NCBI RefSeq assembly: GCF_009914755.1
Contig: NC_060935.1
Reading direction: 5' to 3' (one strand)
Source of the DNA: the human T2T-CHM13v2.0 reference genome, Homo sapiens
DNA: 64,000 nucleotides
The notes beneath the pieces were generated by a model. The model did no database searches. It saw only the letters and a program-made list of their open reading frames with translations, and was not told the origin of the DNA. This document shows positions 26,079 to 39,817 of this stretch, piece after piece. Every line of letters begins with the position of its first letter. Within the stretch, counting starts at the first letter, position 1. The position numbers were made by a program, and so were the translations under genes.

Positions 26079-26387
26079 CTATGATACAAGTATTACCCTC
26101 ATGCCAAAATCAAACAAAGATATCATAAGAAAAGAACAAGCACAAGGGGTCAGGGAATTCCCTTTCCTAGTCAAAGAAAGGGGTGACAGATGGCACCTGG
26201 AAAATCGGGTCACTCCCACCCTAATACTACACTTTTCCAACGGGATTAACAAACGGCACACCAGGAGATTATATCCTGCACATGGCTCAGAGGGTCCTAC
26301 ATCCACAGAGCCTTGCTCATTGCTAGCACAGCAGTCTGAGATCAAACTGCAAGGTGGCAGCGAGGCTGGGGGAGAGGCGTCCACCAT
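26079..26387 (-). CDS. L1 ORF0-like antisense ORF (102 aa) reading out of the truncated L1 5' end; expression unknown
   Basis: MVDASPPASLPPCSLISDCCASN...RVGVTRFSRC matches primate L1 ORF0. ATG lies in a gcaATGG Kozak context. Confidence 0.5.
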   Translation of the reverse strand: MVDASPPASLPPCSLISDCCASNEQGSVDVGPSEPCAGYNLLVCRLLIPLEKCSIRVGVTRFSRCHLSPLSLTRKGNSLTPCACSFLMISLFDFGMRVILVS

Positions 26388-29300
26388 TGCCCAGGCTTGA
26401 GTTGGTCAACAAAGTGGCCAGGAAGCTCAAACTGGGTGGAGCCCACCACAGCTCAAGGAGGCCTGCCTGCCTTTGTAGGCTCCACCTCTGGGGGAAGGGC
26501 ACAAACAAAAGGCAGCAGTAACCTCTGCAGACTTAAATGTCCCTGTCTGACAGCTTTGAAGAGAGTAGTGGTTCTCCCAGCATGCAGCTGGAGATCTGAG
26601 AATGGGCAGACTGCCTCCTCAAGTTGGTCTCTGACCACCAAGTAGCCTAACTGGGAGGCACCCACCAGTAGGGGTGGACTGACACCACACACGGCCAGGT
26701 ACTCCTCTGAGACAAAACTTCCAGAGGAGCGATCAGGCAGCAGCATTTGTGGTTCACCAATATCCACTGTTCTTCAGCCACTGCTGCCAATACCCAGGCA
26801 AACAGGGTCAGGAGTGGACCTTGAGGAAACTCCAACAGACCTGCAGCTGAGGGTCCTGACTGTTAGAAGGAAAACTAACAAAGAGAAAGGTCATCCCACC
26901 AAAAACCCATCTGTATGTCACCATCATCAAAGACCAAAGGTAGATAAAACCACAAAAATGGGGAAAAACAGAGCAGAAAAACCGGAAACTCTAAAAATCA
27001 GAGTGCTTCTCCTCCTCCAAAGGAATGCAGCTCCGCACCAGCAATGGAACAAAAACTGGATGGAGAATGACTTTGACAAGTTGAGAGAAGAAGGCTTCAG
27101 AAGATCAAACTACTCCGAGCAAAAGGAGGAAGTTCAAACCAATGGCAAAGAAGATAAAAACCTTGAAAAAAATTAGATGAATGGATAACTAGAATAACCA
27201 ATGCAGAGAAGTCCTTAAAAGACCTGATGGAGCTGAAAACCATGGCACAAGAACTACATAATGAATGCAAAAGCCTCAGTAGCCAATTCGATCAACTGGA
27301 AGAAAGGGTATCAGCGATGGAAGATGAAATGAATGAAATGAAGTGAGAAGAGAAGTTTAGAGAAAAAAGAATAAAAAGCAATGAACAAAGCCTCCAAGAA
27401 ATATGGGACTATGTGAAAAGACCAAATCTACATCTGATTGGTGTACTGAAAGTAATAGGGAGAATGGAACCAAGTTGGAAAACACTCCGCAGGATATTAT
27501 TCAGGAGAACTTCCCCAATCTAGCAAGGCAGGCCAACATTCAAATTCAGGAAATACAGAGAATGCCACAAAGTTACTCCTCAAGAAGAGCAACTCCAAGA
27601 CACATAATTGTCAGATTCAACAAACTTGAAATGAAGGAAAAAATGTTAAGGGCAGCCAGAGAAAAAGGTCGGGTTACCCACAAAGGGAAGCCCATCAGAC
27701 TAACAGTGGATCTCTCGGCAGAAACTCTACAAGCCAGAAGAGAGTGGGGGTCAATATTCAACATTCTTAAAGAAAAGAATTTTCAACCCAGAATCTCATA
27801 TCCAGCCAAACTAGGCTTCATAAAGTGAAGGAGAAATAAAATCCTTTACAGACAAGCAAATGCTGAGAGATTTTGTCACCACCAGGCCTGCCCTAAAAGA
27901 GCTCCTGAAGGAAGCAGTAAACATGGAAAGGAACAACCAGTACCAGCCACTGCAAAAACATGCCAAATTGTTAAGACAATCAAGGCTAGGAAGAAACTGC
28001 ATCAATTAATGAGCAAAATAACCAGCTACCTCATAATGAGAGGATCACATTCACACATAACAATATTAACTTTAAATGTAAATGGGCTAAATGCTAAAAG
28101 ACACAGACTGGCAAATTGGATAAAGAGTCAAGACCCATCAGTGTGCTGTATTCAGGAAACCCATCTCACGTGCAGAGACACACATAGGCTCAAAATAAAG
28201 GGATGGAGGAAGATCTACCAAGCAAATGGAAAACAAAAAAAGGCAGGGGTGGTAATCTTAGTCTTGGATAAAACAGACTTTAAACCACAAAGATCAAAAC
28301 AGACAAAGAAGGCCATTACATAATGGTAAAGGGATCAATTCAACAAGAAGACCTAACTATCCTAAATATATATGCACCCAACACAGGAGCACCCAGATTC
28401 ATAAAGCAAGTCCTTAGTGACCTACAAGGAGACTTAGATTCCCACACAATAATAATGGGAGACTTTAACACCCCACTGTCAGCATTAGACAGATCAATGA
28501 GACAGAAAGTTAACAAGGATATCCAGGAGTTGAACTCTGCTCTGCACCAAGCGGACCTAATAGACGTCTACAGAACTCTCCACCCCAAATCAACAGAATA
28601 TACATTCTTTTCAGCACCACACCACACCTATTCCAAAATTGACCACATACTTGGAAGTAAAGCACTTCTCAGCAAATGTAAAAGAACAGAAATTATAACA
28701 AACTGTCTCTCAGACCACAGTGTAGTCAAACTAGAACTCAGGATTAAGAAACTCACTCAAAACCACTCAACTACATGGAAACTGAACAACCTGCTTCTGA
28801 ATGACTACTGGGTAAGCAACGAAATGAAGGCAGAAATAAAGATGTTCTTTGAAACCAGTGAGAACAAAGACACAACATACCAGAATCTCTAGGACACATT
28901 CAAAGCAGTGTGTAGAGGGAAATGTATAGCACTAAATGCCCACAAGAGAAAGCAGGAAAGATCTAAAATTGACACCCTAACATCACAATTAAAAGAACTA
29001 GAGAAGCAAGAGCAAACACACTCAAAAGCCAACAGAAGGCAAGAAATAACTAAGATCAGAACAGAACTGAAGGAAATAGAGACACAAAAACCCTTCAAAA
29101 ATTAATGAATCCAGGAGCTGGTTTTTTGAAAACATCAACAAAATTGATAGACCACTAGCAAGACTAATAAAGAAAAGAGAGAAGAATCAAATAGACGCAA
29201 TAAAAAATGAGAAAGGGGATATCACCACTGATCCCACAGATATACAAACTACCATCAGAGAATACTATAAACACCTCTATGCAAATAAACTAGAAAATCT

Positions 29301-39200: not shown

Positions 39201-39817
39201 GGGACATTTAGGTCTGCAGAGTTTACTGCTGTCTTTTTGTTTGTCTGTGCCTTGCCCCAAGAGGTGGAGCCTTCAGGGGCAAGGAGGCCTCCTTGAGCTG
39301 TAGTGGGCTCCACCCAGTTTGAGCTTCCTTACCATTTTGTTTACCTAATCAAACAACTAACTTGGCAATGCTGGGCGCCCCTCCCCCAGCCTCGCTGCCA
39401 CCTTGCAGTTTCATCTTGGGCTGCTGTGCTAGTAATGAGTGAGAGTCCATGGGCGTAGGACCTCCAAGCCATGTACGGGATATAATCTCCTGGTGTGCCA
39501 TTTTTTAAGCCCATTGGAAAAGCGCAGTATTAGTGTGGGAGTGATCCGGTTTTCCAGGTGCCATCTGTCACCACTTTCTTTGACTAGGAAAGGGAATTCC
39601 CTGACCCCTTTTGCTTCCTGGATGAGGCGATGCCTCACCCTGCTTCAGGTCAAACCTGGTGTACTGTACCCACTGTCCTGCAGCTACTGTCTGGCACTCC
39701 CCAGTGAGATGAACCTGGTACCTCAGTTGGAAATGCAGAAATCACCCATCTTCAGCGTTACTCACACTGGGAGCTGTAGACTGGAGCTGTTCCTATTCAG
39801 CCTTCTTGGCTCCTCTC
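33240..39817 (-). mobile_element. Full-length L1PA (about L1PA4; body 33642-39817) with ~390-bp 3' transduction; ORFs disrupted
   Basis: 5' end GAGAGGAGCCAAG at 39817, ORF1/ORF2 fragments, proximal tail at ~33642-33665, distal T-tract at 33241-33254. TSD ttgtgtccctt at 33229-33239 and 39818-39828. Confidence 0.93.

What the first reader, a model, noticed from the sequence alone, without database searches (positions are those of the whole stretch)
26137..39817. Tail-to-tail ~6-kb L1 inverted pair sharing an identical ORF1 frameshift and many private alleles
Two near-full-length L1s face each other across a 1.2-1.6-kb spacer. Both carry CTAGGCTTCATAAAGTGAAG (27811-27830 and 37910-37929), giving AKLGFIK* where the consensus is CTAAGCTTCATAAGTGAAG (AKLSFISEGE). 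They also share aaaCttgaaatg, gaatCtcata, EWETIF, tttCacccagcc and MNLETII. An inactivating frameshift is unlikely to come from an active source (L1 cis preference), and both TSD pairs are intact, so arm-to-arm conversion without net inversion is the simplest reading. The pair is also a substrate for inversion or hairpin formation.
Basis: partly seen in the sequence, partly recalled or inferred. Interest (0 to 1): 0.7.

Follow-up and report, generated by a model that had tools for sequence, protein, structure and literature searches.

The report
Neighbouring L1 copies swapped short patches
Two dead LINE-1 jumping-gene copies facing each other on human chromosome 11 share a rare frameshift, and an old duplicate of the same region across the centromere indicates that the frameshift was likely copied from the right copy onto the left by ordinary gene conversion, a clear example of a known process.

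Summary
Observation confirmed, interpretation supported and sharpened. The left (26138-32074, +) and right (39817-33640, -) L1s share a 20-mer frameshift haplotype found only twice in the genome, against 6,653 hits for the common allele. On average the arms are no more alike (92.1%) than either is to dispersed copies, so sharing is patchy. The whole locus has a segmental duplicate on 11q (flanks 3.3-4.6% diverged), which gives a four-copy test. Of 192 two-versus-two sites, 144 follow the duplication, 36 unite the arms within a locus and 12 are cross-locus controls (p=7e-4). The frameshift is in both right arms and only the 11p left arm, so it was likely copied right-to-left in a tract of at most 165 bp after the duplication. 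The 5' ends fall in different L1 sublineages, which argues against one source. There is no net inversion. Exchange is strongest near the spacer in both duplicates, but the right arm also shares a 264-bp tract with a same-orientation L1 23 kb away, so inverted geometry is not required. The right arm carries a 350-bp 3' transduction from chr4, whose source site is empty. This is known non-allelic gene conversion, unusually well polarised.

The parts
26138..32074 (+). Left L1 arm, 5'-truncated by about 200 bp, reading frames broken; inserted into an old L1 ORF2 remnant
26127..26138 (+). Left arm 5' target-site duplication (A-rich, 10 of 12 matching the 3' copy; weak)
32075..32086 (+). Left arm 3' target-site duplication
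32087..33228 (.). True spacer, 1,142 bp, ancestral orientation; begins with the continuation of the old L1 ORF2 that precedes the left arm
33229..33239 (-). Right insertion 3' target-site duplication (11/11)
33240..33297 (-). Distal A-rich tail of the right insertion, split by a 10-base non-A island (33255-33264) that the 11q copy also has
33298..33649 (-). About 350-bp 3' transduction from G000:C4:48067718-48068068; no young L1 in the 7.2 kb upstream or 2.4 kb downstream fetched there
33640..39817 (-). Right L1 arm, full length (ORF1 start 1,034 bases in), reading frames broken
39818..39828 (-). Right insertion 5' target-site duplication
27752..27916 (+). Inferred acceptor tract in the left arm, 165 bp identical to the right arm, holding the ORF1 frameshift (27822) and alleles 27795, 27814, 27843
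37824..37988 (-). Inferred donor tract in the right arm
30238..30371 (+). 134-bp arm-identical run (partner about 35339-35472); one marker (30338) suggests left-to-right
30441..30545 (+). 105-bp arm-identical run (partner 35165-35269); direction unclear
31001..32070 (+). Spacer-proximal kilobase where within-locus sites outnumber duplication-tracking sites 16 to 7; includes the 97-bp identical run 31704-31800 (partner 33913-34009)
34303..34566 (-). Tract of the right arm nearly identical (3 of 264 differences) to the direct-orientation L1 at 11217-11482
11217..11482 (-). Partner tract in the neighbouring L1 (10545-15619)
4172..48295 (+). Minimum extent of the collinear segmental duplicate at G000:C11:54490854-54532000 (ends not mapped)

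Best explanation
Two L1 elements sit tail to tail 1.1 kb apart, likely inserted independently from different source lineages, and have likely exchanged short patches (about 75-270 bp) by non-allelic gene conversion without a net inversion. Inferred order of events: (1) both insert, the right one bringing 350 bp of chr4 flank from a source that is absent there today; (2) the right arm gains the +1 ORF1 frameshift and a linked substitution; (3) the region is duplicated to 11q; (4) in the 11p copy a tract of at most 165 bp is copied from right to left, while other tracts go left to right; the 11q copy independently homogenises the kilobase next to its spacer. Roughly a tenth to a seventh of each 11p arm has been overwritten since the duplication. 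The likely mechanism is double-strand-break repair using the nearest homologous copy on the same chromosome, which favours but does not need the inverted partner. No function is implied: both elements are dead.
For: Frameshift 20-mer unique to the two arms. The +1 allele has 6 genome hits; only the left arm, right arm and 11q right arm carry the linked substitution, and the 11q left arm has the common allele. Four-copy site patterns 144/36/12, p=7e-4; 15 of 20 consecutive informative sites within-locus, permutation p=5e-5; 21 vs 3 without CpG-prone columns. Tree topology changes along the element: the 5' part groups by duplication (100/100 each) with left and right arms on opposite sides of a 99/98 split; the ORF1 tract groups left+right (96/96); the 3' part groups the 11q arms (100/99). 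The 165-bp run exceeds all 174 local-copy-versus-dispersed pairs (max 162) and has permutation p=0.0015. Rare non-CpG alleles: left-lineage 44 stayed and 7 passed to the right arm; right-lineage 45 stayed and 5 passed to the left arm. Separate TSDs and flanks. Tract sizes match the 250-bp mean reported for human NAGC (bioRxiv 10.1101/135152, abstract).
Against: Overall arm identity is no higher than background. Runs of 165 bp or more occur in 143 of 406 background-background pairs, which are less diverged (4.2%), so run length alone proves little. Three-of-four patterns can also arise from pre-duplication sharing plus reversion in one copy; most directions other than the frameshift rest on one marker. 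Five rare non-CpG alleles are in all four arms and some are shared with the L1 at 10545-15619, which pre-duplication conversion and related sources both explain. The 11p left+right grouping in the 3' tree is weak (86/50). The 29 background copies were chosen by likeness to the left arm. Only one human haplotype and no ape was examined.
Confidence: 0.92

Rival explanations
1. Both arms came from one source element (or a trans-mobilised defective one) that already carried the shared alleles.
For: Five rare non-CpG alleles are in all four arms and spread along the length; 6 dispersed copies carry both 31763 and 31790 alleles.
Against: The 11q left arm lacks the frameshift and its linked allele. 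The 5' tree puts the arms in different sublineages. The 29211+29464 haplotype has 3 hits, all within these two loci. A common source cannot give alleles shared by the 11q arms only (15 rare non-CpG sites).
Confidence: 0.04
2. Fold-back or template switching specific to the inverted geometry (hairpin stem repair near the loop), rather than general proximity-driven conversion, did most of the homogenising. This is a variant mechanism within the best explanation.
For: Within-locus versus duplication-tracking sites: 16:7 in the spacer-proximal kilobase, 18:66 in the middle, 2:72 in the 5' 1.4 kb (Fisher p=2e-8). The L1 pieces at 22950-24131 show 0-1 within-locus sites per comparison, where the arms show 10 and 3 over the same columns.
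Against: The gradient is also what plain distance dependence predicts (homologous points lie 1.6 to 13.5 kb apart), and the 5' part is the most diverged (10-15%). A direct-orientation L1 23 kb away shares a 264-bp tract with the right arm (13 vs 4 non-CpG, p=0.049), and the L1 at 47623-48295 shows 3 and 5 local sites vs 1 cross each, so 3' enrichment may be a property of the L1 3' end.
Confidence: 0.25
3. The spacer inverted and re-inverted (toggling), swapping arm segments reciprocally.
For: Inverted L1 pairs mediate inversions (bioRxiv 2021.12.20.472354 and PMC9675761, passages); a few cross-pattern sites exist (12).
Against: Reciprocal exchange after the duplication should give clustered cross-pattern sites; only 3 non-CpG ones exist and they are scattered (27121, 29030, 31333). 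Both duplicates have the ancestral spacer orientation. An even number of inversions before the duplication is not excluded.
Confidence: 0.07
4. Chance recurrent mutation or assembly error produced the shared alleles.
For: Single alleles recur elsewhere.
Against: Arm-versus-dispersed pairs share on average 0.32 such alleles per kb (max 1.35, 116 pairs) against 19 in 5.9 kb for the arms. The cross-locus control is much lower than the within-locus count. The frameshift allele recurs in a separate locus 6 Mb away in the expected arm.
Confidence: 0.02

Closest known systems
Non-allelic gene conversion between neighbouring Alu elements (Aleshin and Zhi 2010, not held; seen only as summarised in PMC6598467 and PMC8230782)
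   Same: Neighbouring retroelement copies within about 10 kb share mutations, more so at short distance.
   Different: Here the elements are 6-kb L1s, and a segmental duplicate gives direction and relative timing for single tracts without an outgroup species.
Conversion between L1PA3 LINEs, and inversion plus conversion between opposite L1PA7 LINEs, in NA12878 reads (PMC5829575, passages)
   Same: L1-to-L1 conversion, including oppositely oriented pairs.
   Different: Those are single events seen against the reference; this locus records many old events in two replicate loci with no net inversion.
NAGC between human gene duplicates (Harpak et al., bioRxiv 10.1101/135152, abstract)
   Same: Tract size near 250 bp, GC bias (weak hint here), small effect on overall divergence, escape as copies diverge.
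   Different: The substrate is independently inserted retroelements, not duplicated genes.
L1-flanked balanced inversions (bioRxiv 10.1101/2021.12.20.472354; PMC9675761; passages)
   Same: Two oppositely oriented L1s above 90% identity a few kb apart.
   Different: No inversion in either copy of this locus; 92% identity versus medians of 97.2% and 97.1% reported there.
L1 3' transduction (PMC9311842, passages)
   Same: L1, A-tail, unique downstream flank, second A-tail, all within one TSD pair.
   Different: An old, duplicated insertion whose source site on chr4 holds no young L1 in this genome.

Membership tests
Non-allelic gene conversion between TE copies | Copies arose as separate insertions (own junctions, different lineage outside the tracts) | tested here: met
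   Separate TSDs and flanks; 5' tree separates the arms
Non-allelic gene conversion between TE copies | Local tracts whose tree conflicts with the known history | tested here: met
   Site patterns and segment trees
Non-allelic gene conversion between TE copies | Non-reciprocal transfer (donor keeps its allele) | tested here: met
   Frameshift in right, 11q right and left; absent from 11q left; no cluster of reciprocal sites
Non-allelic gene conversion between TE copies | GC bias of converted alleles | tested here: inconclusive
   AT>GC vs GC>AT 9:5 at within-locus sites against 109:199 at singletons, p=0.044, small n, one post-hoc test
Non-allelic gene conversion between TE copies | Unconverted ancestral state in an outgroup species or shared polymorphism in a population | not testable with these tools
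   No ape or other human genomes available; the 11q duplicate served as proxy
L1-mediated balanced inversion | Spacer reversed relative to flanks, with chimeric arms | tested here: not met
   Old L1 ORF2 runs on across the left arm on one strand; spacer collinear with the duplicate
L1 3' transduction | Unique sequence between two A-tails inside the TSDs, matching a locus elsewhere | tested here: met
   95% to chr4, match bounded at both ends
L1 3' transduction | Source L1 directly upstream of the matching locus | tested here: not met
   No young L1 in the 10 kb fetched; old-repeat matches span the junction, so the site is intact and empty. A lost or never-fixed source is inferred
L1PA4 subfamily | Diagnostic positions against the subfamily consensus | not testable with these tools
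No consensus library here.

The most novel reading that the evidence does not exclude
Closely spaced tail-to-tail L1 pairs repeatedly homogenise their spacer-proximal ends by a fold-back route, as both replicate copies of this locus did independently, so keeping a recombination-competent stem long after the arms have diverged; segmentally duplicated L1 pairs would then give a genome-wide, outgroup-free assay of L1-L1 conversion by distance and orientation.
Probability: 0.25. Interest if true: 0.55.

Novelty: new member of a known kind. Interest (0 to 1): 0.3.

Why it matters
It shows, with direction and relative timing, that dead full-length L1s at about 8% divergence still pass mutations, including an inactivating frameshift, to neighbours. 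Shared 'diagnostic' alleles between nearby L1s can therefore mislead source assignment and dating. The duplicated pair is a natural replicate experiment, and the four-copy design could be scaled to measure L1-L1 conversion. No gene or phenotype is affected: the nearest annotated features are olfactory receptor pseudogenes.

Tried and rejected
Average arm identity as evidence: uninformative. Longest identical run alone: not decisive against less diverged background pairs. Looking for transduction siblings to act as a source control: only chr4, the 11q duplicate and weak old-repeat hits were found (4 matches; 26), and the DNA search skips common words. Exchange between the left arm and the L1 at 10545-15619: none (7 local vs 7 cross). 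Exchange with the pieces at 22950-24131: none. A local inverted DNA duplication of one L1: rejected, since each arm has its own junctions and the 5' parts differ by 10-14%. Background copies chosen by likeness to the right arm could not be obtained, so the background leans to the left arm. Formal subfamily assignment was not done. Literature searches (for transductions) listed no paper on this locus by title or abstract start. Aleshin and Zhi 2010, Szak 2003 and the journal version of the inversion catalogue were not held, and inversion call-set supplements were not seen, so a listed inversion at this site is not excluded. The recurrent 11p11 inversion in the preprint (389 SNPs) was not mapped against this window.

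Full report
Observation. The window holds two long L1 copies tail to tail: 26138-32070 (+) aligns to 39616-33639 (-) at 91.2%. The quoted 20-mer sits at the stated places, and an exact genome-wide pattern search finds it only there (2 hits), against 3,321+3,332 hits for the common allele. The other five alleles are in both arms. Both arms are broken: the longest stop-free stretches are 383 and 327 codons. Overall identity says nothing unusual. The arms are 92.1% alike, while 29 dispersed copies (loci L011-L039: of 40 scored matches out of 44,227 candidates, the 30 best were cut out and the self match dropped) are 92.4-93.8% like the left arm and 91.7-93.5% like the right. Identity is uneven: 83-93% over the 5' 1.4 kb, with peaks of 98% at 27622-27918 and 31685-31884, and identical runs of 165, 134, 105 and 97 bp.

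Anatomy. The left arm lacks about 200 bp of 5' end and sits inside an old L1 ORF2 remnant. The left flank matches positions 2632-3688 of a young copy and the spacer start continues at 3717-3879 on the same strand, so the spacer has its ancestral orientation. Its TSD is A-rich (10 of 12). The right insertion is full length with an 11/11 TSD (33229-33239 and 39818-39828), and about 400 bp lie between its L1 tail and the 3' TSD. Searching that stretch gave four matches: itself, chr4 (95%), chr11:54.5 Mb (94%) and a weak chr2 hit. At chr4 the match starts and stops at the two A-tails, no young L1 lies in the 10 kb fetched, and old-repeat hits span the junction. This is a 3' transduction whose source is inferred to have been lost or never fixed.

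The duplicate. The chr11:54.5 Mb hit is a collinear copy of the whole region, at least window 4172-48295, with both arms, the spacer in the same orientation and the transduction. Stretches outside the young L1s differ by 3.25-4.63% (six stretches); by recalled hominoid rates that is roughly 15-20 million years, not tested. This yields four arms, L, R (11p) and Lp, Rp (11q). Without exchange, L pairs with Lp and R with Rp. Exchange after the duplication unites L with R or Lp with Rp. L with Rp or R with Lp is the control for chance.

Four-copy test. Of 192 ungapped two-versus-two sites, 144 follow the duplication, 36 are within-locus and 12 cross-locus (binomial p=7e-4); 15 of 20 consecutive sites are within-locus near the 3' end (permutation p=5e-5). 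A re-alignment gave 145/36/11, and 108/21/3 after dropping CpG-prone columns. By region, within-locus versus duplication-tracking sites are 2:72 (26137-27560), 18:66 (27561-31000) and 16:7 (31001-32070). Trees agree. In the 5' part (15 rows) L+Lp and R+Rp are each 100/100 and lie on opposite sides of a 99/98 split, so the arms came from different sublineages. In the ORF1 tract (31 rows) L+R is 96/96. In the 3' part (35 rows) Lp+Rp is 100/99, while L+R is weak at 86/50. Rows not covering a segment were left out.

The frameshift. A gapped pattern for the +1 allele gives 6 genome hits. Three dispersed ones (chr4, chr14, chrY) lack the linked 27795 substitution and look like recurrences; the three with it are L, R and Rp. 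Lp has the common allele at both sites. The 27814 and 27843 alleles are in L and R only. The simplest history is: frameshift and linked change arise in the ancestral right arm, the region duplicates, two further changes arise in 11p, and 27752-27916 is copied right to left (0 of 165 differences, versus 6 for R/Rp and 4 for L/Lp). The alternative, presence in both ancestral arms with later reversion in Lp, needs more steps and still needs post-duplication exchange for the L+R-only alleles. Among rare non-CpG alleles, 7 of 51 left-lineage alleles reached R and 5 of 50 right-lineage alleles reached L (counting only the two-copy class and that three-copy class), and 15 are shared by Lp and Rp alone. 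So exchange was two-way, patchy and happened separately in both duplicates.

Results against or limiting. Single alleles are not private: 67 hits for the 31763 allele, 8 with the linked 31790 allele including 6 dispersed; 8 hits for 31527+31554 including 6 dispersed. The 29211+29464 haplotype has 3 hits, all in these loci. Five rare alleles in all four arms, and several shared with the L1 at 10545-15619, cannot be assigned between pre-duplication conversion and related sources. A 165-bp run beats all 174 local-copy-versus-dispersed pairs but is matched by 143 of 406 less diverged background pairs. Cross-locus pairs also share background-absent alleles (14 and 13, versus 19 and 25 within loci) when three- and four-copy sites are counted.

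Is inversion needed? No. The right arm and the same-orientation L1 23 kb away differ at 3 of 264 bases in 34303-34566 versus 11217-11482, where each differs from its own duplicate at 21 and 13; overall 13 local versus 4 cross non-CpG sites (p=0.049). The left arm shows no excess with that element (4 vs 2), and the pieces at 22950-24131 show none with either arm. The inverted pair is the most active couple examined, but distance, identity and orientation are confounded in one locus.

Mechanism, shown and inferred. Shown: separate junctions, the duplicate, the allele distribution, regional tree conflict, unchanged spacer orientation, the chr4 match with an empty site. Inferred: order of events, direction of tracts, break-repair conversion as the process, loss of the source element. 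Untested: ages, present-day polymorphism, hairpin formation.

Comparison with what is known. Conversion between TE copies is reviewed in PMC6598467 (parts 1-2 of 4 read), which, like PMC8230782 (passages), cites raised conversion between Alus within 10 kb. L1-L1 conversion, and inversion with conversion between opposite L1s, are described in PMC5829575 (passages). Mean human NAGC tract length of 250 bp and GC bias come from bioRxiv 10.1101/135152 (abstract); dependence on distance and identity from PMC3924818 (passages). L1 pairs flanking inversions have median identity 97.2% (21 of 22 above 90%; bioRxiv 2021.12.20.472354, passages) and 97.1% (PMC9675761, passages). PMC3670932 (passages) and PMC9311842 (passages) gave background only. 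Searches listed nothing on this locus; supplements of inversion catalogues were not seen.

Verdict. A real feature and a new, well-polarised instance of a known process. It is not surprising to a specialist, but the duplicated pair is a neat natural replicate. Interest 0.3.

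Noticed in passing
window 33298-33649; G000:C4:48067718-48068068 (L007:7219-7569): 3' transduction whose chr4 source site holds no young L1: the trace of a lost source element.
   Followed up: yes
window 33240-33297: The distal tail is two A-tracts split by a 10-base island, in both duplicates; possibly a second round of transduction through an intermediate source.
   Followed up: no
window 4172-48295 vs G000:C11:54490854-54532000: Collinear segmental duplicate across the centromere, flanks 3.3-4.6% diverged; ends not mapped. 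Another L1 3' end lies just left of the aligned part in the duplicate (L041:1-855).
   Followed up: partly
window 10545-15619: L1 (-) with a 1.08-kb internal deletion from mid-ORF1 into ORF2 (left-arm positions 27396-28473), present in both duplicates; shares tracts with the right arm.
   Followed up: partly
window 16002-18356: 5'-inverted L1 (junction near 17620) absent from the 11q duplicate (gap 16014-18957), so likely inserted after the duplication or deleted there.
   Followed up: partly
window 22950-24131: Short 5'-inverted L1 (junction near 23560), present in both duplicates, no sign of exchange with the arms.
   Followed up: yes
window 47615-51184: L1 (-) interrupted by a roughly 280-bp repeat at 48868-49144; its 3' part shows 3 and 5 within-locus sites with the left and right arms versus 1 cross site each.
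   Followed up: partly
window about 37805-37823: 18-base insertion near the ORF1 end in the right arm only, just past the converted tract; it bounds the tract.
   Followed up: partly
window 26138-39817 and L040/L008: All four arms are 5.4-6.7% from the background majority versus 2.8-4.6% for nine dispersed copies, and the duplicate arms differ more (5.8%, 7.3%) than the flanks (3.3-4.6%); selection of the background, CpG decay and conversion explain part, a locally high mutation rate is possible.
   Followed up: partly
window 43822-44766 and 55800-56744: The two olfactory receptor pseudogenes are 71.5% alike in opposite orientation.
   Followed up: no
window 2594-3231 and 9172-9769: An 81% direct repeat of about 630 bp, not identified.
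   Followed up: no
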